Below are positions 8,441 through 50,102 of a DNA stretch of 59,826 bases, piece by piece (position 1 is the first letter of the stretch; each line of letters starts with the position of its first letter). The position numbers and the translations under genes were made by a program. This DNA comes from Tortispora ganteri (Eukaryota): the NCBI GenBank assembly GCA_003707115.1, contig PPNB01000037.1, positions 1-59,826 on the forward strand, written 5' to 3'. The notes beneath the pieces are model-generated. The model was not told the origin of the DNA and ran no database searches. It saw only the letters and a list, made by a program, of their open reading frames with translations.

Positions 8441-8504
8441 ACGCGTGAAAGAGTTCAGTTTTCAAGTGCGAACTCAGTTAAAGTTGGGACTCTATGTCAC
8501 GTGA
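8441..8504. promoter_or_regulatory. MCB (ACGCGT, 8441-8446) and Cbf1-type E-box (GTCACGTGA, 8496-8504) upstream of SMC6
   Basis: Exact motif matches about 105 and 160 bp upstream of the SMC6 ATG. Confidence 0.5.
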
Positions 8505-17970: not shown

Positions 17971-18422
17971 ATGAGTTCTGAAAAGAAGGAGGTTGAAGCC
18001 GCCATTGAACGTAAAATCCGTCTTACCCTGGTCTCTAAGAATGTAGAACTCCTTGAGGAAATCTCTACTAAGATTGTCGAGGCTGCTAAGAAGAAGATCT
18101 ACTCTGAATCCAAGCCCAAGACCAGTGTTCGCGGAAAATACGTCAAAGGACCTACCCGTATGCCTACTAAGAACTTACGAATTTCTACCAGAAAGACACC
18201 TAATGGTGAGGGTTCAAAGACTTGGGATGCCTATAACATGCGCATCCATAAGCGCGTCATTGAGTACGTATTCGGAAATATCGCGTGCAAATATATTGCA
18301 GTTTTACTAACATTTTTAGCATCGTCACAACAGCTGACTTTGTCCGACAAATCACTACTCTCTACTTCAACCCTGCTGTTGATGTTGAGATCACTGTCGC
18401 TACTGAAGATGATGAAGAGTAA
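17971..18422 (+). CDS. RPS20: 40S ribosomal protein uS10/S20; exons 17971-18263 and 18320-18422
   Basis: [28 protein letters not shown]; 56-nt intron 18264-18319 (GTACGT..TACTAAC..TAG) restores [22 protein letters not shown]. Confidence 0.95.
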
Positions 18423-18533
18423 TCTTTCTCTCTTCTCTCTATACGTCCTATCTTTATGTAGATTTATGAGGATATATTTGCAAAACAAGGAAGACAGTTA
18501 TCAGTCGTAGTATCAGCAATTTTTTTTGCAGCG

Positions 18534-20720
18534 TTATACCAATTCGATAGGAGGAGGCATCAATGGAACTTTTCCTAATGTGAATTCACTGCTTTTGAAT
18601 GCTGATAAGTCATCGTTTGTTAGTTCAGACAATGGTGTCATTGGTTTGATTCGCAAACCATACGGTAGAGATTGTTCTAAGAGCTGCACTCTTGAGATTT
18701 CTTTGGTTTCCGCTTGATCTTGTGGTTTTGCGGCTGCCCGTTCTCTCGTTGGCGTTGTCTCCATCATGTTAGTAGCACCCTTAGTCGTAGATACAAACGG
18801 GTTTGAATTGTTGGCTTCTACAGAGCCATCTTTCGCAAAAGGACTATCAGGCACATTACCGTCGGTTTTATTAGCCTGTGTCTTGAGTCCAAATGCTGCA
18901 CGAGCTTCAGTTGAAGAAGAAGTTGCTGCTGCTGATCCAAATGAGAGACCACCAATGTCCAGATCAGTGGATAACGATTCATGCTCATTTGGTTTTGTGA
19001 TGTCTTCATCAATATCCTCGTCATTATCTCCTGCTAGTACAGCAAACCTATTTCCTGTATTGGAGAAAGGAGATAGTGCCTTTTCTGGCTCCCTGAAACT
19101 GGAAGTTATGCTAGAGGGAAAGGAGGATTTTAAACCAAATGCAGAATTGCTTGATGCTGCTGCCGCAAAAGGTGAAACGGTCGACGTTGAACCAAACGCT
19201 GACTTATTGTTATTTGCAGCAACTGCCGCAAAAGGTGAAGCGGTCGACGTTGAGCCAAACGCTGACTTATTGTTATCCGCCGCAGCTGCCGCGAAAGGTG
19301 AAGCAGTCGACGTTGAACCAAACGCTGACTTATTGTTATTTGCAGCAGCTGCCGCAAAAGGTGAAGCGGTCGACGTTGAACCAAACGCTGACTTATTATT
19401 ATCCGCCGCAGCTGCTGCAAAAGGTGAAGCGGTCGACGTTGAACCAAAGGCTGACTTATTGCTGTTTGCAGCAGCCGCAAAAGGTGAAGCAGTCGACGTT
19501 GAACCAAACGCTGACTTATTGCTGTTTGCAGCAGCCGCAAAAGGTGAAGCGGTCGACGTTGAACCAAACGCTGACTTATTGTTATCTGCCGCAGCTGCTC
19601 CAAAAGGTGATGCAGTAGATGTGGCAAATGGGGACTTATTGCTATTCGAGCTGGCTACCTGAGCAAATGGAGATTGTGTGGTTCCTGAAATAGCAGGAGA
19701 AGCTTGTGTAGGTGCAAATTTAGCGAAGCCCCCGTTAGCAGTAATATTTTGGCCAGGAGACGAAGTTGCGGATGTCGTATTAGGTGTTGCCACTCCAAAT
19801 GAAGTAGCTCCAAAAGCAGGCGCAGCTCCAAATGTAGTAGATCCAAAGGCTGGGGTAGCTCCAAATGACGCAGCTCCAAAAGCAGGCGCTTGACCCGTGG
19901 CATATGTTGAGGTACCAAAAGCAGTGGGTGCCGAAGCAGTAGGGGTAGGTGTGGTTTCTGTTGTAGCCGGTCCTGGTCTCGGTGAGGGTGAGGCAGCCGG
20001 GGAGCTGAATGAAGTAGAACCAAAAGATGTGGAACCAAAGGCATTAGATGCAGGTGCTAAGGTTGATCCAAACGACGAAGAACCAAAAGCTGGTGATGAT
20101 TGCTTCGAGAATGGATTTGCTGTTGTAGAATTAGATGCAGAATAAGCGAATGGATTTGATGGCGCTGAATTATATTGTGCAAAAGGGTTTGCAGCATTCG
20201 AACTCGATGCAAGGGATTTTTGATTTGATGAGCCAAAAGAACCGAATGCGCCTGAAGGAGTTGAAGATTTGAAAGCAGTTGGTACTGGTTTAGCTAAAGA
20301 GGTAATATCTTCTTCTTTTGGTCCCCATTTCTGCATTGATTTGCCTGATTTAACTTGCTCTATGTACCTTACAGCCCAATCAGGATGAAGTTTAGTAAAA
20401 GCTAATACAGCGCGAATCCTTGTATTCTCATCATTTTCGAAATCAGTGTATTGTTTCTCTTCGCCATTTGAAACCGTTTCATAATACTTGGCCCGCAACT
20501 CCTCCGGCGACCAATCATACCCTGATATCAAGTTCGCCGATTTGCCTTCAGGGCCATAACAAGAGAAAGGATATACTGGCCAATTATCGACATCTTGCGC
20601 GATTGTTCTGCTGTCTAGTTTATCGGGAGGGTCTTCGACCCCGATTATATGCGAAAATTTGCAAGCAGAACCCTTGCGACAGTTTCCATTCAAAAAATAC
20701 TTACAAACAGATTTCGACAT
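18534..20720 (-). CDS. CCCH zinc-finger FG nucleoporin (Amo1/Nup42/NUPL2-like)
   Basis: N-terminal CKYFLNGNCRKGSACKFSH; WPVYPFSCYGP, SPEELR; many SAFG/SPF repeats; C-terminal F..EFTLGKVPLMPPP. Confidence 0.85.
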   Translation of the reverse strand: MSKSVCKYFLNGNCRKGSACKFSHIIGVEDPPDKLDSRTIAQDVDNWPVYPFSCYGPEGKSANLISGYDWSPEELRAKYYETVSNGEEKQYTDFENDENTRIRAVLAFTKLHPDWAVRYIEQVKSGKSMQKWGPKEEDITSLAKPVPTAFKSSTPSGAFGSFGSSNQKSLASSSNAANPFAQYNSAPSNPFAYSASNSTTANPFSKQSSPAFGSSSFGSTLAPASNAFGSTSFGSTSFSSPAASPSPRPGPATTETTPTPTASAPTAFGTSTYATGQAPAFGAASFGATPAFGSTTFGAAPAFGATSFGVATPNTTSATSSPGQNITANGGFAKFAPTQASPAISGTTQSPFAQVASSNSNKSPFATSTASPFGAAAADNNKSAFGSTSTASPFAAAANSNKSAFGSTSTASPFAAAANSNKSAFGSTSTASPFAAAAADNNKSAFGSTSTASPFAAAAANNNKSAFGSTSTASPFAAAAADNNKSAFGSTSTASPFAAVAANNNKSAFGSTSTVSPFAAAASSNSAFGLKSSFPSSITSSFREPEKALSPFSNTGNRFAVLAGDNDEDIDEDITKPNEHESLSTDLDIGGLSFGSAAATSSSTEARAAFGLKTQANKTDGNVPDSPFAKDGSVEANNSNPFVSTTKGATNMMETTPTRERAAAKPQDQAETKEISRVQLLEQSLPYGLRIKPMTPLSELTNDDLSAFKSSEFTLGKVPLMPPPIELV
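19165..19640. repeat. Coding minisatellite: 7 full 60-63 bp units plus a degenerate eighth (NNKSAFGSTSTASPFAAAAA)
   Basis: GGTGAA core recurs at 19171, 19234, 19297, 19360, 19423, 19483, 19543; degenerate GGTGAT at 19606. Confidence 0.95.
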
Positions 20721-21397: not shown

Positions 21398-24289
21398 ATG
21401 ACTACCGCAACTTCGGATCTGTCTAATACTACAAATGGTGCAGATACTAAGCTGGAAAAAGTTATAAATGGCAAAAAATTGCGTCGCTCATCATCTGATC
21501 TAAACAAGAGAGCGTATAAGTGCCCGGAACCAGGATGCGATAAATCTTTCACAAGAGCCGACCATTTATCCAGACACAGACTAAACCACAGCCCTGCTAG
21601 AATATTACGGTGCAGCTTTGAAGGCTGCGATAAAACATTTGTCAGAGAGGATTTGCTAAAGCGTCATGAGCAGAGACAGCGTCATAGAGGTTCGAAGAAA
21701 AAAGCCGAAGCTATTATGGCTGAACTCTGTTTCGATCCAGCTCCGATTCCCGGCTCTTCTCCCTCAGGTTCTGTGAAATCTGTGTCTACTACGGGAAATT
21801 TGACCTCTAATTTCTCTAATAATCGCCAGAATTCGGTTTCTTCCGTCAGTGCAGTTCCTATCCACTCGCATGCTTATCCGTACCCTCATCCGCATGCTCA
21901 TCCTCCAGTTCATCAACCACTCACCAACTCACCGAATGCAGCCTATAGCTGGCCTGAGAGCGCTTCCACCAACGTCCGTGTAGATAATGGCACATCAGTT
22001 GATGGCCAACTTGATGAACGCTCTACTACCAAAAGCTATCGGAGCTCCAATTCCGTGGCTGTTGCTTCACCTATAATGGCAAAACCAGTTCACGCAAACC
22101 ACTCATTCGGAATTAATAATGGCACTAACAATTCATCCAATGAAGGAAATTCTGATGCACCTTTGAATGGTTCTTCGTCAGCGGAAATTCCTTCTGTCAA
22201 CGGAACTGTTGATATTGGTGTATCTTCACATCCAGTGGCGTCCTCTTCTACTATAGTTTCAGCCAGTGCTACCACCAATGCGGTTCGTACCCCCGGTGAT
22301 TCCGCTTCTGCTTCTACATCTGCGGCTTCGGTTCCTGCTTCTGTCCCTATAGCTCCAACTGCCATGTCTGCCTCTCCAACAGTTCTCGCTCCTGGCACTG
22401 ATCTCGCTTCTGCTGCACAAAATGGCGAAGGTAATGAAAACTACAATAACCTAGAATCACAATCATTGTCTGGCAAGTTTAAATTTCCCAACGCTGATGC
22501 ATATAATGGCGATAGTGTTTCACAGGATTTGATTTCTTGGCTGTTCTCCAACCAGTCTCAAGTTGAATTTGGTAGTTTTGCTCAAGATGGACACATTAAT
22601 CTTGACTCTCCTATGTCTATTCCAAACTTAATTAGCCCTCCAGCTTCTCCACAAGACACTCTTATGACTGAAGTTAAGCGCCTTGATCTTATGGCGCTAA
22701 TCCCTTCTCTCGGCAACGATTCCAACCTGAGCCTACAACTTATGGATCATTACATATATCATTATTGGAAAGACTTTCACCCTCAGTTTCCTATTCTTCA
22801 TCGCCCATCTTTTTCTTCTGTTGACACGCCATCTCCTTTACTTTGGGCAATAATCCTTGTTGGTGCGGCGTTGTCTGGTAACAATGAAATAGCTGAGAAA
22901 ATTGCCGAACCTCTACGATGGGTTATTTTTCGTCTTCCTGGGTTTAGCCCTCCTGCACAGCTTTACGTTATACAAGCATTGCTTTTGCTAGAAGCGTTTG
23001 AGAAAACTATGGGATCAAGAGCTCTTCATGAACGAGCTCATGTTCATCACGCCACTACTCTTATGCTCCTAAGAAGGAGTTCGTCCATGCATGAAAGCGA
23101 TGCATCAGCAGATACGGGTCCGTGGAACCGATGGATTCAGTTTGAGTCTCGCAAGCGTGCCACTTTTATGGCTTTTATCTTAGACGTCCTACATGCTATT
23201 CTCTTCACTCATGGTTTGATTCTTTCAGTGCATGAACTTCGCTTGTCTATGCCGTGTGAAGAATCTTTATGGGAATCATACCCTTATAACGATGAGTCTA
23301 TGTCGAAGCGGAAGCCTGTCAATATGTCATTTGGAGATGCCATGAAGTTGGCTCTAAATAATCGCCCAGTTCCGTCTGGTGGTTTGGGAAAGCGCTCTGT
23401 TTTGGCCGGTATGATTGCTTTTTCTCTTCAAATGCAACTAAGAGATAGTGAGGTTAAGGCATTAGGATGGTCTGCTTTTCCTGATACATGGAGAGCTATA
23501 TTGACTCCCGCTTTTATCACATGGAAAGAAGACTATAGCTCTTATGAACTGGATCGAATTGTCCATTCTGTTTCTAAAGAAGGATCAAATTCTGGAGTTG
23601 ACTTAAATGGTGTACAAGATATTGCAGGTACACTCCAATTAGGATGTTTAGGTGCTGAAGTATATTCTGGACTTTTCTTGCTTCGCATGGGCATGTATGA
23701 CATTTTAGCATATGCTGGACTTCCATTTCAACGTGGCCGCCCTGTGAGTGCAACCGACTTTATGCAGTATAGAAAAAGAGTCTATGAATGGGCAACTTCA
23801 CGTGGTGGACTTGAAGCTTACTTCTATGCACTTAGACCGTTGATAGAGTCGTTTATATACCCAGGGGTGAGCGGTGGTTATTCTGCAGGTCGGGATACCG
23901 TACTTCACCGTCCGTTTGTGTTGTATACAGCTACAGTGGTAGTTTGGGCGTTTGGCTATATTAATTATGGATGTGAAAGTCATGTTTTGGAAGGTGTATC
24001 AGATTTTGAAGGCATTCATGAAGATCCTATTCCACTGGAGAGTGGAAAGTCATATCTTTTGCGCATGAGCCGAGCGAGCACCCCTGAAGAAATAATGCCA
24101 TACCCCAACAAGCATCACACTATTGGGTTACTGCAACTTTGTAGAGCTTCATTTGAGGATTCTCGTTGGTTCCTTATGAAAGAAAGTCGAAAGCTTTTGA
24201 ATCACATTATGCAGCGATCCATGGGGCGTGCGGAGAATCTGCAGTGTAATGAGCTACTTCCAGAGCTAACATTGAAGACAAACACTTGA
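21398..24289 (+). CDS. C2H2 zinc-finger transcription factor with fungal-specific TF domain
   Basis: Two C2H2 fingers (CPEPGCDKSFTRADHLSRH; CSFEGCDKTFVREDLLKRH), S/N/A-rich linker, YWKDFHPQFPILHRPSF, ESRKR, MPCEESLWE. Confidence 0.9.
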   Translation: MTTATSDLSNTTNGADTKLEKVINGKKLRRSSSDLNKRAYKCPEPGCDKSFTRADHLSRHRLNHSPARILRCSFEGCDKTFVREDLLKRHEQRQRHRGSKKKAEAIMAELCFDPAPIPGSSPSGSVKSVSTTGNLTSNFSNNRQNSVSSVSAVPIHSHAYPYPHPHAHPPVHQPLTNSPNAAYSWPESASTNVRVDNGTSVDGQLDERSTTKSYRSSNSVAVASPIMAKPVHANHSFGINNGTNNSSNEGNSDAPLNGSSSAEIPSVNGTVDIGVSSHPVASSSTIVSASATTNAVRTPGDSASASTSAASVPASVPIAPTAMSASPTVLAPGTDLASAAQNGEGNENYNNLESQSLSGKFKFPNADAYNGDSVSQDLISWLFSNQSQVEFGSFAQDGHINLDSPMSIPNLISPPASPQDTLMTEVKRLDLMALIPSLGNDSNLSLQLMDHYIYHYWKDFHPQFPILHRPSFSSVDTPSPLLWAIILVGAALSGNNEIAEKIAEPLRWVIFRLPGFSPPAQLYVIQALLLLEAFEKTMGSRALHERAHVHHATTLMLLRRSSSMHESDASADTGPWNRWIQFESRKRATFMAFILDVLHAILFTHGLILSVHELRLSMPCEESLWESYPYNDESMSKRKPVNMSFGDAMKLALNNRPVPSGGLGKRSVLAGMIAFSLQMQLRDSEVKALGWSAFPDTWRAILTPAFITWKEDYSSYELDRIVHSVSKEGSNSGVDLNGVQDIAGTLQLGCLGAEVYSGLFLLRMGMYDILAYAGLPFQRGRPVSATDFMQYRKRVYEWATSRGGLEAYFYALRPLIESFIYPGVSGGYSAGRDTVLHRPFVLYTATVVVWAFGYINYGCESHVLEGVSDFEGIHEDPIPLESGKSYLLRMSRASTPEEIMPYPNKHHTIGLLQLCRASFEDSRWFLMKESRKLLNHIMQRSMGRAENLQCNELLPELTLKTNT

Positions 24290-24354
24290 ATTTAAGGCAT
24301 GCATTGTACATTTGGTTTATAAATAATTTTTGCTCATCATATTATAGATAGATA

Positions 24355-26391
24355 TTATCTAGTAAAACGCACAGAGTTAGATGCCATGAATCCAATTACC
24401 CAGAACACTTTCATCCAGAAATTCCACTGACTAGAATTCCTATTTTGCTTGTCTGCAACCCCTGATAGAGTGACTATTCTTCCGTGACATGGAATTTTGT
24501 AAATTATGGTGCTCCATCGCTCTAATATATAACACCATTCTACAGCGCTCAATGGCATACATACGAAAGAAAGAGCCTCACCGATGATCTCCTGGTGAAG
24601 TGTACCAGTTATATCAGCAAACAAATATTCAGATGAGGCAATGTTATTATCAATGAGCGGGGTAATGGCAATCCTTAATTGACAAAAGTCAATTAGCATG
24701 CGAGTAATCTCTGACGGTAGGTATATAGTCAGATCTTTGCGATCGAGATCGGTGGATTTGTCACAGTTCGAACTCAAGTCAATTACTGCGACGTACTTAT
24801 CTTTTCTGATCTTTATATCCGATAATTTGATAGATGAGATAAATTCCATCTTTCTATAAGTTCCTTGCAACAATATGATCATGCTAACTAGGCAAAGCTG
24901 AATTTGACGAAACATTATATCCAAGATATCAGAACAAGACAAGAAAGAATAAAGTTCTTGAATAATATTCAGTCTTACTGCAGAATATTCCTGTTCAAGG
25001 CTTAGTATTTCCCTTGTGTTTCCTAATAGAATGTAAAAACGCGTGATGCAGGATTCCAATGTTGACCGTAAAGAAGTCATAGTGAATTCTTTTCCGTTCA
25101 ATTCAACAAACTCGGCGGAAATTCTCATTAGAGCCCTTTCCTTTTCTATGTACTTAATATTAGCGCTCTTGAAATGCACTTTAGGTTGGATACTGTCATT
25201 ATTATGAGAGCTTTGCAAGTTGCTATTAATATTGTACAGCAAATCCCAGAAAGGTATTGCTATTTCAGCGATATTGTCAGAAATATCATCGCTGCCTGAA
25301 GAGGAGCAAGCCACCAGGAATTCTAGTACCAAACTATCATCTGAGCATTCTTCTGCAAACAGCAATGTAGCGATTTGCTTCAATACCGTACATGTTGCAT
25401 TAGAAAGTGCAGAGGCGTGAGTTTGAGTTGCAGGATCAGGATATCCAGAAAAGAAAGGTATTTCGGTTTCAGAGTCCCTAATTCTATATAATGCAAAAGA
25501 TATGAACCGTATAGTGAGTTCTATATTTTCTCTGTTTGGCGATACACTGAGCTCTTGAAGTGCATTTGCCACCGCGGTGTCAAAAATAGGATTGTATGTC
25601 CATCTTGTGGTACAGAACTTGAGAGTAATGATCTCATTGACTGTCTTATATTTTGTATACTTGTATGCAATTTCTCTTGTATTCCAGGCGGGAATATCCC
25701 GACAAGGGGGGCTGAACTCAGACGCTGGTATAAATTCATCGCGATTGGGGTTTCGTGCGATGTCTTCTGAACGAAACGTCAGGTATATGGAACCAGGAAC
25801 CTGCTGAAGTGGATTCTCGGCAGAGTTAATAAGATTTTGGAGAGAGAAATTCAGGTTGAGGTGGGGAAATGCTGTCTTTATATCGTTATCATTAGTTGGA
25901 ACTGGCAGTGAAGAACAGAACCGTGCAGACTCCACTGGCAGGTTTTCTTTATGTACAGACTTAAAGTGAGCAGCAAGTTGTGAAGGCAGACACTGTTTCC
26001 TGCATATTAAACATTCGTAAGACCTTGCTCTCCAGTTGTAAAGAATGAAATTGTTGTTGAGATCGAGCGAATTAAGTTTCGCAAAGGAGGATATGTTCGC
26101 AATCATAAGAGAGTATAGCGCACAATCGCGCGTGCTTAAAAAGCGTGAGCCGTCTTTCGTAGTATAGTATCCATCAGGTCCACGCAAAATAGCTCCCGGT
26201 AGATTCTCTTCATGTATAGTGTCTAAATGATGCAGTAGCGACGTGTAGTCACCAAAAGTCCAATCACAAAGTGGACAAGTTTTCCCATCTTCAGACACGC
26301 TGAATGCATAATTCTTAGAATCTGGAGTATCGAAATACCTTAGCAATATTGGACTAATGTGTCCGAAGAAACGCGAAGACGCGCCTTGCAT
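24355..26391 (-). CDS. Orphan C2H2/DUF3505(OrsD)-like protein with a degenerate tyrosine-recombinase-like C-terminal domain
   Basis: Long uninterrupted ORF (first ATG 26391); CPLC..HHLDTIH; CLICRKQCLPSQLAAHFKSVH; GTYRKMEFISSI..KDLTIYLPSEITRMLIDF..YLF. Confidence 0.6.
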   Translation of the reverse strand: MQGASSRFFGHISPILLRYFDTPDSKNYAFSVSEDGKTCPLCDWTFGDYTSLLHHLDTIHEENLPGAILRGPDGYYTTKDGSRFLSTRDCALYSLMIANISSFAKLNSLDLNNNFILYNWRARSYECLICRKQCLPSQLAAHFKSVHKENLPVESARFCSSLPVPTNDNDIKTAFPHLNLNFSLQNLINSAENPLQQVPGSIYLTFRSEDIARNPNRDEFIPASEFSPPCRDIPAWNTREIAYKYTKYKTVNEIITLKFCTTRWTYNPIFDTAVANALQELSVSPNRENIELTIRFISFALYRIRDSETEIPFFSGYPDPATQTHASALSNATCTVLKQIATLLFAEECSDDSLVLEFLVACSSSGSDDISDNIAEIAIPFWDLLYNINSNLQSSHNNDSIQPKVHFKSANIKYIEKERALMRISAEFVELNGKEFTMTSLRSTLESCITRFYILLGNTREILSLEQEYSAVRLNIIQELYSFLSCSDILDIMFRQIQLCLVSMIILLQGTYRKMEFISSIKLSDIKIRKDKYVAVIDLSSNCDKSTDLDRKDLTIYLPSEITRMLIDFCQLRIAITPLIDNNIASSEYLFADITGTLHQEIIGEALSFVCMPLSAVEWCYILERWSTIIYKIPCHGRIVTLSGVADKQNRNSSQWNFWMKVFWVIGFMASNSVRFTR

Positions 26392-26989
26392 TGAAACGTT
26401 TCCCGTTACGATTGACGATGTCGAGACTTTCACGATAGGCAAGAATCACGAGACCGTAACAAACGTGGAACCACCTCCTTTACTCGTGCAAGCGGTCGTA
26501 TTGCGGGCGCGATTTGAATTTTGTCGTCAGATTCACGATTTAAAAGAAAACCCACTGTTTTTAATAAGGTTAGCTGGAAGCAATGTATATGTTATCGCGT
26601 ATGGTGTCGATATGTTGGGGCTCGACAGAGGTGATCTGATAGAAGTAGCAGGTTATGTATGCGTGGAAAAGCCTACGAAATACATTTCTGCTCACAAAAT
26701 TAAACGAATAGTAGCATTTGACAATCCTAGAATTAATAGAGAGATGGAAATATGGGCTAATTTCTGCTCTAACAGGCGAAGAGATGAACGATTCAACCTC
26801 AAGAAACGAAGCTTGCACTTCGATCCATATCACATTCAAAGCAGTGGTCGAACAGAAAAGGCGATTTATTTAATCGGACCCCGACTCAGCATTGTTCCTA
26901 AAGCAAAAGTAGACGGATATCCATCGAAAGCGACGCCTGATATTAAGGACATGAAAGAATTAGATATCATCGACGTCGTTGATCATTAG
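26357..26989 (+). CDS. Putative single OB-fold protein (RPA32/Stn1-like)
   Basis: 210-aa ORF; FPVTIDDV, LVQAVV, GDLIEVAGYV, YISAHKIKRI..D..INREMEIW fit the RPA32/Stn1 OB pattern by eye. Confidence 0.5.
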   Translation: MCPKKREDAPCIETFPVTIDDVETFTIGKNHETVTNVEPPPLLVQAVVLRARFEFCRQIHDLKENPLFLIRLAGSNVYVIAYGVDMLGLDRGDLIEVAGYVCVEKPTKYISAHKIKRIVAFDNPRINREMEIWANFCSNRRRDERFNLKKRSLHFDPYHIQSSGRTEKAIYLIGPRLSIVPKAKVDGYPSKATPDIKDMKELDIIDVVDH

Positions 26990-27506
26990 GTGTGATTTCT
27001 ACAAACTTGTACTTCCTATACCTACCCCCGTGTAGCTGTTTAAAACAGATCCTGTAACCGTCAATGCCGCTCAATTCATTCATCCACTCAAGTTCTATTA
27101 TTGCGTTCTTGTCGTCCGTGTGATCTGATAGCTTGTAGATCTCATCTCCACTGACAATACGCATACCGACCTCCTCGAACACCTCGCCACACACTTTCAC
27201 TACATCGTTCGTCTTAAGCTCATTCTTCCACTTCGTGTCCGTTCGAATTCGCACTTCATATCCAAATAGATCGCGAACATTTAGTGCTGTACATTCGGGA
27301 CTTTGTAGCGATTTGACTTTGTCCACTACGCCGATTAGCACTATCTTCTCCGCAATTAGAGTCTTGATACTATCGATCACGGTACTTATCACCGTATACG
27401 GTCCAACTGCAACGCTTGTATGCTTCTCAACATTTATTAGTGCTTCGTATGGGACCTCTTCGCACTCTTCAATAATCTTACCAGTCACCGGACATGTGCG
27501 ATACAT
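26967..27506 (-). CDS. Putative single OB-fold protein (RPA32/Stn1-like)
   Basis: 179-aa ORF; RTCPVTGKII, KIVLIGVV, LNVRDLFGYEV, DVVKVCGEV..GMRIV..EIYKL.D..IELEW. Confidence 0.55.
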   Translation of the reverse strand: MYRTCPVTGKIIEECEEVPYEALINVEKHTSVAVGPYTVISTVIDSIKTLIAEKIVLIGVVDKVKSLQSPECTALNVRDLFGYEVRIRTDTKWKNELKTNDVVKVCGEVFEEVGMRIVSGDEIYKLSDHTDDKNAIIELEWMNELSGIDGYRICFKQLHGGRYRKYKFVEITPNDQRRR

Positions 27507-27662
27507 TTAAGTATGCTTCACACGGTGATAAGGATAAGTTAAGCTTCCGCGTTAGTCTTATGTTGTCTAAATAATAACAATAAAAAATCATTCTTATCTC
27601 ATACCTACTAATGATAAATACGATGAATATTAACCAAAAACAGTGCCCTCATAATCTACAGA

Positions 27663-29873
27663 CTAAGCACAGCAGCATTGTCCGGGAGAGCACTTGCAAG
27701 CTGTAGCACATCCATGCTTTTTGGAGTTACAGTTGCATCCACATCCAAGGCTAACTGGTTCCATAGCACTGGTCTTGTTCGAGGAGCAGCAGCTATCGCC
27801 CATAGCAGCTTCGCCGGATGTCTTTCCGAATGCCAGTGCAGATGTACTATCCTTCATAGCATGTAATCCAGCCTTGTTAGCCTTGACATCACTGGTAGTG
27901 ACGTTAAACGACGCGGGAACGTCCAAAGCAGGGTTTCTTAAGAAAAAGTTACGAGGCCTCAAAAGCAAGTTAATAGGCTCAGCAGGCATGATAGGGAAAT
28001 CCTCAGGTGCTGGGAAGTGTGTGATACCAAATGTATGCCAAACAACAATATCGGTGTTTTCAACGCTGGCCTTGCCATCGCCAATCCACTCAGGAAGACC
28101 TCGACTAGGCTCACCGGAAGTTTGAGGAACATGATTTCCAGCAGGATAGAATTGACGGTCAACATATGGAGTGACATGAATAGCATTTCTAGCAAATCCA
28201 GCACGCTTCCAAACAAGAGATCCAGGCTTCGGCAAAAGCAAAGGAACTTCGCGCGAGACTAACTTGTAGGTAGCAGGCTTCTTGGAGTAAGGGTGAATCC
28301 TATTCGGATTGAACATGTCGTATGTTCGGCATCTGGGGCCATCGTAGCCATATTTCGCTTCCCCACATGTTTTAGGGACAGTTCTTTCAGCATAGAATGC
28401 ATTTCCATAGAAGTTTTCAGCGCTTCCTACAGGGGCGGCAGACTGGGCGCCATCCACTACGGCAAACGAATTGCCAGGGCCATCGATTTCTGGGTTAATG
28501 CGAAGACAGAACAAGTGCTGATGGTTGTGAGCATTGACTTTGGGGTAAACTTGAGTGCCATATCCCTTGAGATCATCATCCTCGTTGCAGATATAGGTGT
28601 TCAGAATACCGGTGAGCTTAATCTCTAATTGAATAGTACCGTCCATGTGGAAAATGTAGTAGACCATGTACTCGTAATTTGCAGCAGTGAAAATGTGAGA
28701 TATGACCAAGCGAACTCCACGAGTAACAATGGTGGTCTGGAAATCGTCTCTGAAATCAGAATGCTTAAAGAGGACTCCATCATCTTCCTCATGGATACAG
28801 ACGGCGTTCTTTATGGTAGAAACATTTCCATTTCTTTCAACGAAGTCAAAATCGAGATAATGGATAACACCCTTGCAGTCACAGCCAAGGGATAAAGGAT
28901 TCGTCATGTTACCAGCACCGTATTCACCAAGGTCGAATGCGTGTTTGCGCTGATGAGGGAAAGAAGGCTCACCATAGGGGACAACCATCTCCGCCAAAGA
29001 AAGTCTGTAGAATATAGAGCGAGGAGTACCCTTGTCATTGTAGAAGATATCCGAGAGTACAAGGCCTTCACGGTAATTAAAGCCAATGTGAAACTTGAAG
29101 TTCTGCCACTCGATGTAGCGGCCGTCCATTGAGAAATTGACGCCTTGGGGTTGGGTGACAGCAATAGGCTTGACTTCGCGAATAGGACCGACATCTTTGA
29201 TATTGAAGTTAGAGTGTTTGTACTTGGATACAGGGCGACGAACAGAGGGAATATCTATGGCGATAACTTCTTTCTTAGATGAGTCAACAATAGGGCAAAA
29301 ATCCAGAGGGTGAGAGTACTGAGAGTCATCTTCGTCGGATCTATAGTACATGAGAGCCTGTTGGAGACGTTCGGAAGTTCCAAAACGCTCATCATAGCCT
29401 ATTGTCCAGGGATCACAGTAGACCTTGTGCATCTCCTCTTTAGGAATACCAGAGAGTTCGCATTGTTTAATGACTCTGGGATCTTTGCGAATAACATCCT
29501 CAACGGTTCGGAGATCATCGGTAGTGATAATAGGGCACGCTCCGCTTGTCTGGTTGCACTCTTCAATCGATTTAGTAGTAATATTGACTACACCCTCGAA
29601 AAATCCGGTGCTCAACGAATCATCAAGAATGATGAAGTAGGCTTTGCGATCGGGGATCTTAGTGCCAGTCTCCTTCCAGAACTTGAATGCAGACTTGTCA
29701 GGCTCATGGAGAGTGACAGTGTTGAATCCAATAGAGTGTCCTTTAAAGGTATCACGAACGATACTCACAACAGTAGTAAGCTCGTAGACAGAGAGCGGAT
29801 CAAGAGGATGAGGAATACCAGCTTCCTTTGACGCAGTAGTATGGTTAGCGATTTGGTTAAGACGTTCAGCCAT
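27663..29873 (-). CDS. Copper amine oxidase (peroxisomal-type) with Cys-rich C-terminal tail
   Basis: PHPLDPLS, AFDLGEYG, TPQ motif ANYEY, Cu ligands HNHQH, WHTFGITHFPAPEDFPIMP; PTS2-like RLNQIANH. Confidence 0.95.
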   Translation of the reverse strand: MAERLNQIANHTTASKEAGIPHPLDPLSVYELTTVVSIVRDTFKGHSIGFNTVTLHEPDKSAFKFWKETGTKIPDRKAYFIILDDSLSTGFFEGVVNITTKSIEECNQTSGACPIITTDDLRTVEDVIRKDPRVIKQCELSGIPKEEMHKVYCDPWTIGYDERFGTSERLQQALMYYRSDEDDSQYSHPLDFCPIVDSSKKEVIAIDIPSVRRPVSKYKHSNFNIKDVGPIREVKPIAVTQPQGVNFSMDGRYIEWQNFKFHIGFNYREGLVLSDIFYNDKGTPRSIFYRLSLAEMVVPYGEPSFPHQRKHAFDLGEYGAGNMTNPLSLGCDCKGVIHYLDFDFVERNGNVSTIKNAVCIHEEDDGVLFKHSDFRDDFQTTIVTRGVRLVISHIFTAANYEYMVYYIFHMDGTIQLEIKLTGILNTYICNEDDDLKGYGTQVYPKVNAHNHQHLFCLRINPEIDGPGNSFAVVDGAQSAAPVGSAENFYGNAFYAERTVPKTCGEAKYGYDGPRCRTYDMFNPNRIHPYSKKPATYKLVSREVPLLLPKPGSLVWKRAGFARNAIHVTPYVDRQFYPAGNHVPQTSGEPSRGLPEWIGDGKASVENTDIVVWHTFGITHFPAPEDFPIMPAEPINLLLRPRNFFLRNPALDVPASFNVTTSDVKANKAGLHAMKDSTSALAFGKTSGEAAMGDSCCSSNKTSAMEPVSLGCGCNCNSKKHGCATACKCSPGQCCCA

Positions 29874-30812: not shown

Positions 30813-31643
30813 ATGAAACTGTCACCGATGATATGGGCTATAGTCACTCTGCTTCCTCTAGCGATGTCTCATAGCGATGACCTGTGGGATTTCCCGGATG
30901 ACCACGATGACCACGATGATCATCATGACCATCATGACCATCATGACCATCATCCGCCAGACTATCATGAGCATCATCACCATCGAAAGCGCACACGTAT
31001 ATGCTGGCCTAGGAATGCCTTCTTACGGCCTACAGAAGGAGGATATGACGAGTTCTTTAGAGTACACAGGCAGAATTGTTATGGTCACTATTTTGTGACT
31101 GACCGCATTGCAGATATCTGGGTAACTCCATCTTGCACTGAATGGCTTGAGCCTGGTCTGCCGGAAGCCAAATGTCATGAAAAACACGGCTGTGGCCATG
31201 CCGAGAGAGGCTGGGGCTCATGTCATGGCGGCCACGATGGTCATCATGGAGGATGCGGTTGTGGCGGCGGAGGATACCTTCTGGACCCGCACAACGTAAC
31301 GGGTGAGTTCCCAGACATTGAACCTGGCGTCAGCAAGCTCAAGGACAGGCGATCTGACGACTACGAGTCCCTCGACCAAGAGGAACGAAATAGGAAAGCT
31401 TGGTATGAAGGTCTTGGAAACGATGTCAAATCGGGCGTATTTAGAAGAAGTCCTGAGCCACTCTTACATCATCATGACGAGTGTCATCACCATCACATGG
31501 ATGATGACGATGGCCTTGGTCACAATTACAAGGGAACCTATCGACTGCAAGATTGTCCTAGTCAAAGCGCACCCTTGTTACCTGACCGAAACTCGTATGA
31601 ATGCTGGGATACAGATGTTGATGTACTCATTATTGGAATTTAG
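30813..31643 (+). CDS. Secreted His/Asp/Cys-rich orphan protein, probable Kex2-processed precursor
   Basis: Signal peptide MKLSPMIWAIVTLLPLAMS; HDDHDDHHDHHDHHDHH; dibasic sites RKR, DRR, RR-SPEP. Confidence 0.75.
   Translation: MKLSPMIWAIVTLLPLAMSHSDDLWDFPDDHDDHDDHHDHHDHHDHHPPDYHEHHHHRKRTRICWPRNAFLRPTEGGYDEFFRVHRQNCYGHYFVTDRIADIWVTPSCTEWLEPGLPEAKCHEKHGCGHAERGWGSCHGGHDGHHGGCGCGGGGYLLDPHNVTGEFPDIEPGVSKLKDRRSDDYESLDQEERNRKAWYEGLGNDVKSGVFRRSPEPLLHHHDECHHHHMDDDDGLGHNYKGTYRLQDCPSQSAPLLPDRNSYECWDTDVDVLIIGI
30898..30953 (+). repeat. 9-bp coding tandem repeat (GACCACGAT/GACCATCAT) encoding DHD/DHH
   Basis: gatgaccacgatgaccacgatgatcatcatgaccatcatgaccatcatgaccatcat. Confidence 0.9.
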
Positions 31644-47219: not shown

Positions 47220-50102
47220 TTAAACGTAGTCAGATGTTTGTCCCCTGGATTTAAGCCACATTTCCTTGACGATTTCTGTAGTTTTCGCACCACCCCGCAG
47301 TACCAGTGACTTAGAGATAAATTGGTCAATTGCTTGCTGTGATATATCTTTAGGCTGCAGAGCGCCGATCGCTTGCGGAAGCCATTGCTTCATTTGGATC
47401 GGAAGCTTGAAAATCATTTTCTTATATAATTCGCTGACTCGAATCAGTTCGCTTCTCAACGCTTGTCCGAATATCAACTTGACGACAGATAAACAGAGAG
47501 AATAGCCTGTACTTTCTATGAACGGAGCAAATAGTCCTTCTCTAACTGAGTCCTTGTTGGTTAGAAGTGTTTGCCAGAACATTAGAGCACTCTTCTTCAC
47601 AAAGAGCTCCGAGTATCCTATGAAGAATATTATGAAATCTGCTATATCGCCCGCATAAATGCTCTCGAAGAAAATATTTGGGTAGTTTAGGATGATTGCC
47701 TTGAAGAAATCTATTATTGTGAAAATATTGTCCGGGTTCGATGCATCTGTGGACGCAATTCTTTTGGTAACAGCGCTAAAGAGCTGTTGTATAACTGGTG
47801 AACTTTCGGGCTCTCCGCTATTCTTCAGACTACCTAGCACGGCTATTGCTAGTCGTATATATAAATAACCAGTTTCCGAAAAGTTTGCGCTAGTTCCAGC
47901 TTCAATAAACGAAATTGCTTCGAGCGGTGCAATGCATAACAGGCTGTCTTCAACGCCCGCATCATATAGTCCAGCTTTGATAATAGATGTAGCATGTTCT
48001 ACCACCGTAGGATCATTGCAAGGACCCCATCTATCAAAGACAATATCGCGAGTTATTGCTAATATTTTAGCTTTTACTGCAACTTTGTCTTCGTAACTAT
48101 ATACTTGCCCATGGAAGGCTTGGTCTCCATCAACGGTGATAGCATTTTCAATTTCATTAGCTTCATCTGCATCGTCGTTCACAGCACTGCAGAATGCATC
48201 GAGCATAATTAAAGCATTCTCAGCGTCATTCCAGTTATTTTGAGACATGTTCTGCGTATGCATTTGTATCAGGCTTAAGATTTGGAGAAACTCGGCAACG
48301 CGGGTCGGAATATTTGGTTCTGCATTGACAATTGTTGTGAGCCCAGATACTATACGCTCCCGCACTAGTGCATCCAGAGTACTAAAAATATCGTTGGATA
48401 TTACAGACATTAAACTCGGAAGCATTTCATGTAATCTGTTTCGGTACACAAGACAAAGACTTTGTATAGCTTTGGACGCAGGAAGTGCTAGAAGCTTGTC
48501 TGTGATAAATGAAAAAAGAATAGACATGAGCCTTTGAATAAACTCATAATCTGCGCTTAGTGCAATATAGTGCTCATAGTTTGAAATAAGTCTCACGAAA
48601 GTATTGGCTATGAACGGAACAGACCTAGACGCATCCATTTGGCTGATGAAACTATCATTCCAGAATATAGACAACAGTTGAGCGACTTCAGCACTTTTTA
48701 CTGGAAGGGTGTACGAAATCCCGTTAATAAAGCATATATATGCTTCTAGTCTTGTTGGCGTCTGATCAGCTAACGAGTTCGCTGCCATTTGTGTGAGATA
48801 AGACAAGGTCTCATTGCCCAGTGGAGTCAGTGTAAATTCTAGGTAATCACATAGTTCGCGTCTAAACTGGTTAAATTGGTCTTTTTCATCACTGTTCCAG
48901 GAATTGAATGCCTCTATTGACGGGATAATCGCTCTCAGGGTTAACACGGTGATCGATCTCTGGATTATGGATTTGCAGAAAGGCGCATGCGGACTTTCTT
49001 CTTGTAACAATTCGTCAGTTGTGTCACAGAAATTGTTCCAGAATTCAATTGTATGAGAGAGAACTTTATACTCGTTCTCTATTGGTGTGGTTGTTATGAC
49101 TTTGAAGAGCGCCTCTAAGGCATCTTGGCATAATGACATCGTCAGTGTTGTTTCTATGCTGTGTGAAGATGCAGACGAGAATAGCTCTATCCATGCTGTT
49201 AAAACGTCAGAGTCGTATTCAGCTTCTTTCAGTATGTCGTCCACTAAGGGTAAGCATGTGCTTATGGTGCTGGCTAACATGTCGTTGTTAAACAGCGTGG
49301 GTACTTGATCAATGAGGTCTGATAACGATGACGCCACCATTTTGAATAACTCGTTATTTTTCAGGTAGTTTATTGCAGTTGGTATAAATTCTCTTAGCCG
49401 TAGGATTGATGAGTCGGTCAGATGAGTGCGTATTAGAATGGCCCAAGCCTGCAAGAGACCGATCCAATCCAGAGGATATATTGCGGGTGTAGCTAGCAGT
49501 TGTTCCATGACTATACACGAATTATTTAGCATTTCTGTAAATTCTGATGAAGGTGCGTTCTTGTCTAAGTCTTCAGCGAAAACCTTACATATGAAGAGAA
49601 AAAGATGAAGCGATTCTGGTGCAAGGCCGGTTAGCATTGCCGATATGGTAGATGGGTTTTGAGCACTTTCGTCGGCGATTTTGCAGTCCTCTGTGCTGAA
49701 ATGAGGTCTCTCATCGCAAATCGACCAGAGAAGACAAAATAGTGGGTTTTTAATTACATCGGGGTATTTCGCGATTAGAGCACTGAACGCACCAGCGAGT
49801 TTTATGGTGACCACAAGCACATCTGATCTCTTGATAGATACTGCAATAAGGCTAGCTATATCCAATATACGATTTTGGTCTAAACATTCAATGTTAATTC
49901 GAACAGATACGGTCAAGGCTCCCACAAATCGGCAGTTTGGATCTGAATGTTGAAGAAGTGCTAGTGCCAGATCCCACCCATTCGGCCCTCTTTGGAAGGC
50001 TTGCAGTTGCTTTTGAATACTGATGACGTCGTACTGGTTTGTACCACTTGTGTATAGCTTCTGTATAAGCGATATCGTCTCATTTATGGCACTGTCGCTC
50101 AT
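47220..50102 (-). CDS. KAP122: Importin-beta family karyopherin (Kap122/Pdr6, importin-13-like)
   Basis: IQKQLQAFQRGPNGW..RFVGALT importin N-terminus; HEAT-like helices; C-terminal LRG...VKEMW..SRG. Confidence 0.7.
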   Translation of the reverse strand: MSDSAINETISLIQKLYTSGTNQYDVISIQKQLQAFQRGPNGWDLALALLQHSDPNCRFVGALTVSVRINIECLDQNRILDIASLIAVSIKRSDVLVVTIKLAGAFSALIAKYPDVIKNPLFCLLWSICDERPHFSTEDCKIADESAQNPSTISAMLTGLAPESLHLFLFICKVFAEDLDKNAPSSEFTEMLNNSCIVMEQLLATPAIYPLDWIGLLQAWAILIRTHLTDSSILRLREFIPTAINYLKNNELFKMVASSLSDLIDQVPTLFNNDMLASTISTCLPLVDDILKEAEYDSDVLTAWIELFSSASSHSIETTLTMSLCQDALEALFKVITTTPIENEYKVLSHTIEFWNNFCDTTDELLQEESPHAPFCKSIIQRSITVLTLRAIIPSIEAFNSWNSDEKDQFNQFRRELCDYLEFTLTPLGNETLSYLTQMAANSLADQTPTRLEAYICFINGISYTLPVKSAEVAQLLSIFWNDSFISQMDASRSVPFIANTFVRLISNYEHYIALSADYEFIQRLMSILFSFITDKLLALPASKAIQSLCLVYRNRLHEMLPSLMSVISNDIFSTLDALVRERIVSGLTTIVNAEPNIPTRVAEFLQILSLIQMHTQNMSQNNWNDAENALIMLDAFCSAVNDDADEANEIENAITVDGDQAFHGQVYSYEDKVAVKAKILAITRDIVFDRWGPCNDPTVVEHATSIIKAGLYDAGVEDSLLCIAPLEAISFIEAGTSANFSETGYLYIRLAIAVLGSLKNSGEPESSPVIQQLFSAVTKRIASTDASNPDNIFTIIDFFKAIILNYPNIFFESIYAGDIADFIIFFIGYSELFVKKSALMFWQTLLTNKDSVREGLFAPFIESTGYSLCLSVVKLIFGQALRSELIRVSELYKKMIFKLPIQMKQWLPQAIGALQPKDISQQAIDQFISKSLVLRGGAKTTEIVKEMWLKSRGQTSDYV

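What the first reader, a model, noticed from the sequence alone, without database searches (positions are those of the whole stretch)
24355..27506. Cassette of three overlapping orphan genes: recombinase-like zinc-finger protein plus two RPA32/Stn1-like OB-fold genes
Seen in sequence: three non-housekeeping ORFs are packed with no spacers between a transcription factor and the amine oxidase. The large ORF and the 210-aa ORF overlap head-to-head (26357-26391), and the two small ORFs overlap tail-to-tail (26967-26989). By eye, the large protein resembles the N-half of fungal telomere-linked RecQ helicases, and both small proteins resemble ssDNA-binding OB folds. Inference: a DNA-transaction module, either a captured or domesticated mobile/subtelomeric element with its own SSBs, or a lineage-specific telomere/meiotic complex. 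I know of no described system with this combination.
Basis: partly seen in the sequence, partly recalled or inferred. Interest (0 to 1): 0.8.

Follow-up and report, generated by a model that had tools for sequence, protein, structure and literature searches.

The report
Three packed orphan genes in Tortispora
Three tightly overlapping genes found only in the yeast genus Tortispora are real and conserved, but the idea that they form a DNA-handling module rests on weak hints only.

Summary
ORFs of 678, 210 and 179 aa sit at the stated coordinates, with a 35-nt head-to-head and a 23-nt tail-to-tail overlap. These are the only 2 coding overlaps among 25 gene junctions in the window.

The 678-aa and 179-aa proteins each have one relative, in Tortispora caseinolytica (81% and 88% identity, no indels). 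Their accession numbers are consecutive, so the genes are probably neighbours there too. An exhaustive search of 1.84 billion proteins found nothing else beyond generic zinc-finger matches.

The 210-aa ORF has no annotated relative. However, an ORF that long arose in only 1 of 200 simulated windows, and it shows coding codon usage in its own frame only.

No profile search supports an OB fold or a recombinase fold, and no fold comparison was possible because both AlphaFold runs failed at pLDDT 31-32. The tyrosine-recombinase catalytic tetrad cannot be placed.

Only language-model neighbours point to OB-fold families (210 aa) and to OrsD-finger fungal proteins (large protein). Both are leads, not tests.

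There are no transposon hallmarks, and the locus lies among housekeeping genes with no telomere-linked genes in view.

Verdict: real lineage-restricted genes with conserved linkage; function unresolved; the DNA-module reading stays speculative.

The parts
24355..26391 (-). Gene for a 678-aa protein: two isolated C2H2 fingers, then a variable linker, a helical middle and a conserved C-terminal region.
   Evidence: ORF. Ortholog P0001 (T. caseinolytica) is 81% identical over 678 of 678 columns with no gaps. Codon score +0.124 in its own frame only. Pfam gives only sub-threshold zf-C2H2.
26212..26277 (-). C2H2 finger 1 (aa 39-60: C39, C42, H54/H55, H60), followed by E-N-L-P.
   Evidence: Pfam zf-C2H2 at 38-60, E 8.9e-4, 20 bits, below the 25.2 cut-off. 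All ligand residues are invariant in P0001.
25951..26013 (-). C2H2 finger 2 (aa 127-147: C127, C130, H142, H147), also followed by E-N-L-P. It looks like an internal duplicate of finger 1, 87 aa downstream.
   Evidence: Read directly from the translation. Ligands are invariant in P0001. Weak PDB matches to Kaiso fingers at 118-153, E 0.9.
24358..24864 (-). Conserved C-terminal region (aa 510-678) of unknown fold. By eye its spacing resembles a tyrosine-recombinase catalytic domain, but without the catalytic residues.
   Evidence: 84% identity to P0001, against 73-77% for the linker and middle. There is no Tyr after aa 631 and no H-x-x-R. No profile hit. The AlphaFold model is unusable, pLDDT 32.
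26357..26989 (+). 210-aa ORF, probably a gene, not annotated in the relative. Candidate single OB-fold protein with putative core at aa 40-140 (26474-26776).
   Evidence: ORF. First ATG lies 15 codons after the upstream stop, and no canonical intron signals extend it. An ORF of at least 210 aa arose in 1 of 200 simulations. Codon score +0.092 in its own frame only. Atlas neighbours are OB families at 0.85-0.89. No homolog, Pfam or PDB hit.
26967..27506 (-). Gene for a 179-aa protein of unknown fold. Its putative core (aa 50-150, 27057-27359) aligns collinearly with the 210-aa core.
   Evidence: ORF. Ortholog P0002 is 88% identical with no gaps. Codon score +0.054 in its own frame only. Core alignment is 21% identical, with 2-14 of 1000 shuffles reaching its score on hand-picked cores but 57-115 of 1000 on the full lengths.
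26357..26391 (.). Head-to-head overlap of the two start regions (35 nt). Each gene's promoter and 5' UTR must lie inside the other's coding sequence.
   Evidence: Coordinates. It is the only divergent junction below 99 bp in the window.
26967..26989 (.). Tail-to-tail overlap of the two small ORFs (23 nt).
   Evidence: Coordinates. Other convergent gaps are 23-232 bp.
27507..27662 (-). 156-bp spacer serving as upstream region of the 179-aa gene and downstream region of the amine oxidase gene.
   Evidence: One ACGCG at 27548-27552 (-), not significant.

Best explanation
These are three single-copy, protein-coding genes restricted, as far as the databases reach, to the yeast genus Tortispora. They sit in a chromosome-internal, housekeeping part of a very compact genome and their linkage is conserved. 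They are not an active mobile element.

Shown:
- The genes look real.
- The 678-aa and 179-aa proteins are conserved without indels.
- Those two genes are adjacent in a second species.
- No catalytic domain is recognisable.
- There are no transposon hallmarks.

Inferred, and my committed guess:
- The large protein is a non-catalytic nucleic-acid or chromatin-binding protein. Its duplicated C2H2 pair belongs to the OrsD-type finger module that filamentous fungi carry on telomere-linked helicases and other selfish-element proteins. That would make it a domesticated remnant that kept DNA binding and lost any enzyme part.
- The two small proteins are distant paralogs of each other with a single OB-like barrel plus a C-terminal helix (the Ten1 / RPA14 / RMI2 class rather than full RPA32 / Stn1).
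- They would pair through those helices to bind single-stranded DNA, possibly recruited by the large protein.
- The overlapping 5' and 3' ends would couple their transcription.

I put gene reality at about 0.9 or higher for each ORF, lowest for the 210-aa one. I put the functional-module mechanism at about 0.2-0.3.
For: Gene reality: ORF lengths against simulation (at least 210 aa in 1 of 200, at least 179 aa in 8 of 200). Codon score is positive only in-frame for all 3.

Conservation: P0001 is 81% and P0002 88% identical, with 0 gaps in 678 and 179 columns. The finger region (86%) and C-terminal region (84%) are better kept than the linker (73%) and middle (77%).

Linkage: P0001 and P0002 carry consecutive GenBank protein accessions and share the same longest contig of 2,610,682 bases.

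Restricted range: the word-index searches found 1, 0 and 1 relatives. Exhaustive phmmer of the large protein gave 4 proteins at E up to 1e-3, of which 3 are generic multi-C2H2 proteins matching only aa 35-160.

Not mobile: only 14-29-nt imperfect repeats around the cassette. Clusters have one member each. Flanks are SMC-like, Nrap, Pom152, KARI, Mid1, NPC1, 14-3-3, Bre1 and others. There is no GC anomaly.

Fingers: two C2H2 sites with invariant ligands and the same E-N-L-P tail.

OrsD lead: Atlas ranks 1-3 are OrsD clusters at 0.90, 0.90 and 0.88, sharing 172-178 of 256 features. OrsD sits on subtelomeric helicase genes (passages).

OB lead: all ten best family-bearing Atlas hits of the 210-aa ORF share one clan.

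Paralogy hint: the cores align collinearly at 21% identity with a shared E-x-E-x-W-x-N stretch after the last predicted strand; 2-14 of 1000 shuffles reach the score.
Against: - No profile or sequence method supports any fold. Pfam at E up to 1-10 gives nothing for the 210-aa ORF, only a sub-threshold SPC25 hit for the 179-aa protein, and no OrsD, DUF3435, integrase, Stn1, Ten1, RMI2 or RPA row for any of them. The PDB sequence searches are blank or noise. PHROGs and NCBIfam give noise.
- The Atlas scores fall in the range the tool itself calls leads only. For the 210-aa ORF, recognition is 1885, below the 2300 that 91 in 100 known-family proteins reach, and a third of shuffled proteins also get ten-of-ten clan agreement. 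For the large protein only 4 of the ten best family-bearing hits agree, which the tool reads as 'family probably wrong'.
- Paralogy of the small proteins is not significant without my hand-picked cores. Full-length local alignment is reached by 57-115 of 1000 shuffles, hhalign gives probability 4%, and BLASTP gives E 0.11 off-register.
- The 179-aa protein has no OB evidence at all beyond that alignment.
- The 210-aa ORF is not annotated in T. caseinolytica. Its head-to-head overlap leaves no room for a conventional promoter.
- Both AlphaFold models failed (pLDDT 31.0 and 32.3).
- Nothing links the three functionally except position, in a genome where everything is close together.
Confidence: 0.3

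Rival explanations
1. Three functionally unrelated, fast-evolving lineage-restricted genes that sit together only because this genome is very compact. The overlaps are by-products of compaction, not a sign of a module.
For: 76% of the window is coding, convergent gaps go down to 23 bp and divergent gaps to 99 bp. No family, fold or interaction evidence ties them together. Codon scores at the low end (+0.05 to +0.12) fit weakly expressed young genes.
Against: Adjacency of at least two of them is kept in a second species. The weak collinear likeness of the two small proteins would be an odd coincidence for unrelated neighbours. True CDS overlap occurs at only 2 of 25 junctions, and both involve this cassette.
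Confidence: 0.3
2. The small proteins are highly diverged orthologs of universal small OB-fold proteins that evolve too fast for profile searches (Ten1, a short Stn1, Est3 or Rfa3). That would make them ordinary telomere or replication genes that happen to be neighbours, and the large gene would be unrelated.
For: Sizes of 179 and 210 aa fit single-OB proteins. Atlas neighbours of the 210-aa ORF include Stn1 and Ten1_2 clusters. Such proteins are known to be poorly conserved (general knowledge, not tested here).
Against: No hit to any of those Pfam families even at E up to 10. I could not check whether the genome has other candidates for these roles, because no genome is held. I know of no yeast with adjacent Stn1 and Ten1 genes (recalled).
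Confidence: 0.15
3. The 210-aa ORF is not a gene. The locus is then two tandem minus-strand genes with an ordinary 575-bp spacer that happens to be open on the other strand.
For: It is not annotated in T. caseinolytica, where the flanking genes have consecutive accessions. A 575-bp tandem spacer is typical here (most are 132-931 bp). The head-to-head overlap leaves no promoter space. The Atlas recognition value is low.
Against: An ORF of at least 210 aa arose in 1 of 200 simulated 60-kb windows, so the chance of one exactly filling this 0.6-kb gap is far smaller. Codon score is +0.092 in-frame and -0.26 to -0.73 in the other five frames. It is not the antisense shadow of another gene, since it overlaps neighbours by only 35 and 23 nt.
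Confidence: 0.1
4. The cassette is an active or recently captured mobile or subtelomeric element (Crypton-, Starship- or TLH-like) carrying its own ssDNA-binding proteins.
For: Atlas neighbours of the large protein include OrsD and, lower down (0.83-0.84), DUF3435 clusters. Fungal selfish elements carry such domains.
Against: No terminal or flanking repeats. A single ortholog and single-member clusters in the relative. No catalytic tetrad, helicase or transposase domain. Housekeeping neighbours. No compositional shift. The same neighbour pair is kept in two species.
Confidence: 0.03

Closest known systems
OrsD-domain (Pfam PF12013, formerly DUF3505) proteins of Ascomycota, including the N-terminal parts of subtelomeric RecQ-like helicases
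   Same: Two separated C2H2-like zinc sites near the N-terminus of a long fungal protein. The nearest language-model neighbours of the ortholog are OrsD clusters of 644-933 aa. OrsD is reported on subtelomeric helicase genes (passages in bioRxiv 10.1101/721753 and 10.1101/2023.02.05.527183).
   Different: No Pfam OrsD match at E up to 1 (window protein) or up to 10 (its ortholog P0001). No DEAD or Helicase_C domain. Single copy. Flanked by housekeeping genes rather than telomere-linked ones. That OrsD is defined by two C2H2-like segments is recalled, not from a call.
Domesticated Crypton tyrosine-recombinase derivatives in yeasts (Gcr1, Msn1, Hot1, Cbf2/Ndc10) and DUF3504 genes of animals
   Same: A precedent for a recombinase-derived, catalytically dead DNA-binding protein kept as a host gene (passages of PMC3212892). 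By eye, aa 505-600 have the spacing of a recombinase Arg-I helix, beta-hairpin Lys and following helix. The low-confidence AlphaFold secondary structure has the same helix, three-strand, helix order.
   Different: No GCR1_C, NDC10_II, DUF3435, DUF3504 or Phage_integrase hit. The R-H-R-Y tetrad is absent. DUF3435 clusters score only 0.83-0.84 in the Atlas, within its noise range. The resemblance is mine by eye.
Single-OB subunits of RPA-like complexes: Ten1, RPA14/Rfa3, RMI2, and the N-terminal OB of Stn1/RPA32
   Same: Size. The Atlas neighbours of the 210-aa ORF are tRNA_anti-codon, RMI2, Stn1 and Ten1_2 clusters. The strand-like hydrophobic pattern ends in a helix, and there are two such genes side by side, as expected for a heterodimer.
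   Different: No profile hit, no PDB hit, and no usable model. There is no winged-helix C-terminus, so these are not RPA32 or Stn1 proper. No OB evidence at all for the 179-aa protein on its own.
Helitron-encoded RPA-like proteins (recalled)
   Same: A selfish-element protein travelling with its own OB-fold ssDNA binders.
   Different: No Rep or helicase gene here, no element ends, single copy. The comparison is recalled from general knowledge and was not tested.

Membership tests
Pfam OrsD (PF12013) | Match to the family HMM at or above the gathering score | tested here: not met
   No OrsD row for the window protein at E up to 1 or for P0001 at E up to 10.
Pfam OrsD (PF12013) | Two separated C2H2-like zinc-binding segments (definition recalled) | tested here: met
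   C39/C42/H54-55/H60 and C127/C130/H142/H147 are all invariant in P0001, and both are followed by E-N-L-P.
Pfam OrsD (PF12013) | Similarity to family members by an independent method | tested here: inconclusive
   Atlas ranks 1-3 are OrsD clusters at 0.88-0.90 with 172-178 shared features, but only 4 of the ten best family-bearing hits agree.
Tyrosine recombinase (Phage_integrase / Crypton / DUF3435) | Profile match to a recombinase family | tested here: not met
   No such row in Pfam, PHROGs or NCBIfam. PDB phmmer gives only finger noise.
Tyrosine recombinase (Phage_integrase / Crypton / DUF3435) | Catalytic tetrad R...H-x-x-R...Y in order (as stated in PMC3212892) | tested here: not met
   Of the residues conserved in aa 499-678, there is no H-x-x-R, the only conserved His is H636 (H-G-R), and there is no Tyr after Y631.
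Tyrosine recombinase (Phage_integrase / Crypton / DUF3435) | Recombinase fold | tested here: inconclusive
   AlphaFold mean pLDDT 32.3, no residue at 70 or above. The Atlas's own model has pLDDT 0.43 and its structure hits have TM 0.16-0.22.
Fungal telomere-linked RecQ helicase (TLH) | DEAD and Helicase_C domains | tested here: not met
   Absent from the 678-aa protein.
Fungal telomere-linked RecQ helicase (TLH) | Subtelomeric, multi-copy | tested here: not met
   Housekeeping genes for 24 kb and 32 kb on either side. One ortholog in T. caseinolytica. Copy number in the window's own genome is untestable.
RPA32 / Stn1 | OB-fold domain recognised by tRNA_anti-codon or Stn1 profiles | tested here: not met
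   No row at E up to 10 for either small protein or P0002.
RPA32 / Stn1 | C-terminal winged-helix domain(s) after the OB | tested here: not met
   No RPA_C hit. About 70 aa (210-aa ORF) and 29 aa (179-aa protein) remain after the putative core, which leaves no room for Stn1's winged-helix domains. The ~70-aa tail of the 210-aa ORF could in length hold a single RPA32-type winged helix.
Ten1 / RPA14 / RMI2 (single-OB subunits) | Profile match | tested here: not met
   No Ten1, Ten1_2, Rep_fac-A_3 or RMI2 row.
Ten1 / RPA14 / RMI2 (single-OB subunits) | OB fold (five-strand barrel plus C-terminal helix) | tested here: inconclusive
   Atlas feature neighbours of the 210-aa ORF are OB families at 0.85-0.89. 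The AlphaFold model of the 179-aa protein failed, pLDDT 31.0.
Ten1 / RPA14 / RMI2 (single-OB subunits) | Heterodimer with a second OB subunit | not testable with these tools
   No usable prediction was obtained; it needs deep alignments or an experiment.
DNA transposon or other mobile element | Terminal repeats, target-site duplication, multiple copies | tested here: not met
   Only 7 direct and 10 inverted short imperfect repeats (14-29 nt, 72-93%) in 23500-28500, and none bracket the cassette. Single-member clusters.

The most novel reading that the evidence does not exclude
A Tortispora-specific three-protein DNA-end or ssDNA-handling module. It would consist of a domesticated, enzyme-less descendant of the OrsD-finger proteins of telomere-linked or Crypton-like selfish elements, working with a dedicated heterodimer of two paralogous single-OB proteins (an RPA14/Ten1/RMI2-like pair). 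All three would be encoded in one block whose overlapping 5' and 3' ends couple their expression. This would be a yeast case of a selfish-element protein domesticated together with its own ssDNA binders.
Probability: 0.12. Interest if true: 0.7.

Novelty: new member of a known kind. Interest (0 to 1): 0.35.

Why it matters
If the module reading were true, it would show a budding-yeast lineage building a private RPA/CST-like accessory complex from selfish-element parts. It would also give the widespread but unstudied OrsD finger module a tractable, single-copy representative.

As the evidence stands, the value is more modest. There are three well-behaved taxonomically restricted genes, one of them apparently missing from the public annotation of the sister species. 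There is also a rare true head-to-head CDS overlap in a yeast, which makes a clean case for studying promoter sharing in compact genomes. The case further shows that current single-sequence structure predictors give nothing for such orphans, so genus-level alignments are needed.

Tried and rejected
- **Complex prediction of the 210-aa and 179-aa proteins.** Verdict 'no answer', score 0.00 in two runs, controls not run. This is no evidence either way.
- **AlphaFold2.** The 179-aa protein with a 2-sequence alignment gave pLDDT 31.0. The 678-aa protein with a 2-sequence alignment gave pLDDT 32.3. Both are unusable, so I ran no fold search on them.
- **Own-genome search.** No genome is held, so copy number and the presence of other Stn1/Ten1/Rfa genes could not be checked.
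- **Collection scans.** Metagenome scans with the large-protein alignment and the 210-aa ORF and viral-contig scans with both small proteins found pattern matches but 0 confirmed relatives.
- **A profile made from the two aligned small-protein cores against the PDB.** 10 hits at E 0.24-1.6 (coat protein, CSK kinase, SH3 and others), none an OB protein.
- **Fetching reference Stn1/OB sequences for profile-profile comparison.** The held genomes and controls are prokaryotic, Pfam Stn1 matched nothing, and I dropped this route.
- **Earlier notes of this scan.** Nothing relevant.
- **Literature on the two T. caseinolytica locus tags.** One unrelated paper. A search for 'telomere-linked helicase' with 'tyrosine recombinase' and 'fungi' found 0 papers.
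- **MCB-like ACGCG motifs around the gene starts.** There are 4 within 1.2 kb, but window-wide the count is 63 against 53 +/- 8 expected, so I rejected this as evidence of G1/S control.
- **Intron rescue of the 210-aa ORF's awkward start.** No canonical splice signals in place.
- **2-micron-like plasmid or retroelement remnant.** Considered and rejected: no inverted repeats and no RT or Flp-like hits.

Full report
**What is there.** On the left is a C2H2 plus Fungal_trans transcription factor (21398-24289, +). On the right is a copper amine oxidase (27663-29873, -). The large ORF and the 210-aa ORF overlap head-to-head by 35 nt. The two small ORFs overlap tail-to-tail by 23 nt.

**Wider context.** The window is a compact yeast chromosome segment. 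ORFs of at least 150 aa cover 76% of it. Among 25 junctions, these two are the only coding overlaps; other divergent gaps are 99-1811 bp and other convergent gaps 23-232 bp. The other genes are ordinary housekeeping genes: glutaredoxin, mitochondrial carrier, DEAD-box helicase, SMC-like ATPase, Nrap, Pom152, KARI, Mid1, ABC1 kinase, NPC1, 14-3-3, Bre1 and others. So the locus is chromosome-internal in character, not subtelomeric. GC content shows no local shift. Rfam and ARAGORN find only two tRNAs, both outside the cassette.

**Are they genes?** In 200 first-order Markov simulations of the window, an ORF of at least 210 aa arose in 1 and one of at least 179 aa in 8. A codon-usage log-likelihood trained on 16 long ORFs of the window is positive for each of the three only in its own frame (+0.124, +0.092, +0.054 bits per codon). 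It is negative in all five other frames. That puts them at the low end of the window's range of +0.10 to +0.37. One other ORF (30813-31643, no Pfam family) scores as low, at +0.065.

The large and the 179-aa proteins each have one relative in a 5.8-billion-protein index, both from Tortispora caseinolytica NRRL Y-17796. P0001 is 81% identical over all 678 residues and P0002 is 88% identical over all 179, each without a single gap. The window is therefore from another Tortispora-like yeast; this is an inference from best hits only.

The two T. caseinolytica proteins have consecutive GenBank accessions and share the same longest contig. So they are almost certainly neighbouring genes there too, with no annotated gene between them.

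The 210-aa ORF has no annotated relative: 158 candidates were examined and none reached E 1e-3. Its ATG is the first after an upstream stop 15 codons away, and no canonical splice signals offer another model. I rate it a real gene at about 0.9, on ORF length and codon usage. The rival is that the locus is just two tandem genes with an ordinary 575-bp spacer.

**Range.** An exhaustive phmmer of the large protein against 1.84 billion representatives gave 4 proteins at E up to 1e-3. One is P0001. The other three are weak (1.2e-4 to 6.7e-4), match only residues 35-160, and prove to be generic multi-C2H2 proteins. Metagenome and viral-contig scans found no relatives. As far as these databases reach, all three are restricted to Tortispora.

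**The large protein.** Pfam gives only sub-threshold zf-C2H2 at residues 38-60 (E 8.9e-4, 20 bits against a 25.2 cut-off). The sequence shows two classical C2H2 sites 87 residues apart: C39/C42/H54-55/H60 and C127/C130/H142/H147. Each is followed by the same E-N-L-P, and all ligands are invariant in P0001. This looks like an internal duplication.

Conservation is highest in the finger region (86%) and the last 169 residues (84%). It is lower in the linker (73%) and the helical middle (77%).

The ESM Atlas holds P0001. Its nearest feature neighbours are Ascomycota clusters carrying Pfam OrsD (0.90, 0.90 and 0.88; 172-178 of 256 features). DUF3435 clusters appear further down at 0.83-0.84. However, only 4 of the ten best family-bearing hits agree, which the tool reads as a probably wrong family. 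The structure search is meaningless, with TM 0.16-0.22 on a model of pLDDT 0.43.

OrsD/DUF3505 is reported on large subtelomeric helicase genes of Fusarium, Colletotrichum and Pyrenochaeta (passages of bioRxiv 10.1101/721753 and 10.1101/2023.02.05.527183). Against membership: the Pfam OrsD model does not match at E up to 10, there is no helicase domain, the gene is single-copy, and the locus shows no telomere-linked genes.

**'Recombinase-like'.** By eye, residues 505-600 have the spacing of a tyrosine-recombinase Arg-I helix, beta-hairpin lysine and following helix. The low-confidence AlphaFold secondary structure has the same helix, three-strand, helix order. But no recombinase profile matches.

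The defining R-H-R-Y tetrad (as stated in PMC3212892, passages) cannot be placed. There is no conserved H-x-x-R and no tyrosine after residue 631. At most this is a catalytically dead derivative, as described for Gcr1, Cbf2/Ndc10 and the animal DUF3504 genes. I treat that as a possibility, not a finding.

**The small proteins.** Neither has a Pfam hit at E up to 10, apart from a sub-threshold SPC25 row for the 179-aa protein. Neither has a PDB sequence hit.

The Atlas neighbours of the 210-aa ORF are all OB-fold families (tRNA_anti-codon, RMI2, Stn1, Ten1_2). The scores are 0.85-0.89 with recognition 1885, which the tool calls a lead only. A third of shuffled proteins also get ten-of-ten clan agreement.

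The two proteins are not detectably paralogous by BLASTP (E 0.11, off-register) or hhalign (probability 4%). Their hand-picked cores (aa 40-140 and 50-150) do align collinearly with two small gaps at 21% identity, and share an E-x-E-x-W-x-N stretch after the last strand-like segment. On those cores 2-14 of 1000 shuffles reach the score. On the unselected full lengths 57-115 of 1000 do. The result is suggestive but not significant. A profile of the aligned cores finds no OB protein in the PDB.

Both proteins are too short for Stn1's winged-helix domains. If they are OB proteins, they resemble Ten1, RPA14 or RMI2 rather than full-length RPA32 or Stn1.

**Structure.** AlphaFold2 with the only available two-sequence alignments failed for the 179-aa protein (pLDDT 31.0) and the 678-aa protein (pLDDT 32.3). 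I therefore ran no fold searches. Fold remains untested, not refuted.

**Mobile element?** Nothing supports this. Only short imperfect repeats (14-29 nt, 72-93%) occur in 23500-28500, and none bracket the cassette. There are single orthologs and single-member clusters, no transposase, helicase, RT or active recombinase, housekeeping flanks, and the same gene pair adjacent in two species.

**Reading.**
- *Shown:* three real-looking genes, two of them conserved under evident constraint and linked in two species; all taxonomically restricted; no enzyme domain; not a transposon.
- *Inferred (about 0.2-0.3):* the large protein is a non-catalytic DNA- or chromatin-binding protein built on an OrsD-type finger pair, possibly a domesticated remnant of a selfish-element protein. 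The two small proteins are a diverged pair of single-OB proteins that could bind ssDNA as a heterodimer. The overlapping ends would couple expression.
- *Rivals:* unrelated orphans brought together by compaction (0.3); highly diverged orthologs of Ten1, Stn1, Est3 or Rfa3 (0.15); the 210-aa ORF not being a gene (0.1); an active mobile element (0.03).

**What is left open.** Four things could not be tested:
- copy number and the presence of canonical telomere or RPA genes, because no genome is held;
- conservation of the 210-aa frame in T. caseinolytica, because no DNA of that species could be reached;
- fold.

No paper mentions the two T. caseinolytica locus tags: the search returned one unrelated paper. 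A search combining 'telomere-linked helicase', 'tyrosine recombinase' and 'fungi' found none. I opened no supplementary files.

**Verdict.** Interest is moderate to low until genus-level alignments allow real fold assignment.

Noticed in passing
27663-29873 (-) and 30813-31643 (+): The Pfam enzyme domain of the copper amine oxidase ends at residue 650 of 736. The last ~45 residues are a Cys-rich, metallothionein-like tail (CC, CGCNC, CKC, CCC). Its divergent neighbour is a 276-aa protein with a signal-peptide-like start, long His/Asp runs and a GCGCGGGG stretch, and no Pfam family. They may form a metal-handling pair.
   Followed up: no
18534-20720 (-) and 18766-19662 (+): The 728-aa ORF has only a CCCH finger at residues 6-24. 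It carries a 298-aa antisense ORF whose codon-usage score (+0.341) exceeds that of the 728-aa ORF itself (+0.268). Either low-complexity sequence keeps both strands open, or the gene model needs checking.
   Followed up: no
47220-50102 (-): A 960-aa ORF with no Pfam family at E up to 1e-5. It is another possible lineage-restricted or fast-evolving gene.
   Followed up: no
53652-57077: A 3.4-kb stretch without any ORF of at least 150 aa, in an otherwise 76%-coding window. No Rfam family was found there.
   Followed up: no
26371-26383, 26596-26600, 27548-27552; also 8441-8446: ACGCG (MCB-core-like) occurs four times around the starts of the cassette genes. ACGCGT occurs upstream of the SMC-like gene. 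Window-wide the motif is not enriched: 63 found against 53 +/- 8 expected.
   Followed up: partly
17971-18510 (+): A 179-aa ORF with a Ribosomal_S10 domain only at residues 17-99 of the ORF, covering 70 of 98 profile positions, with a 737-bp gap upstream. The gene model may include an intron or an over-long ORF.
   Followed up: no
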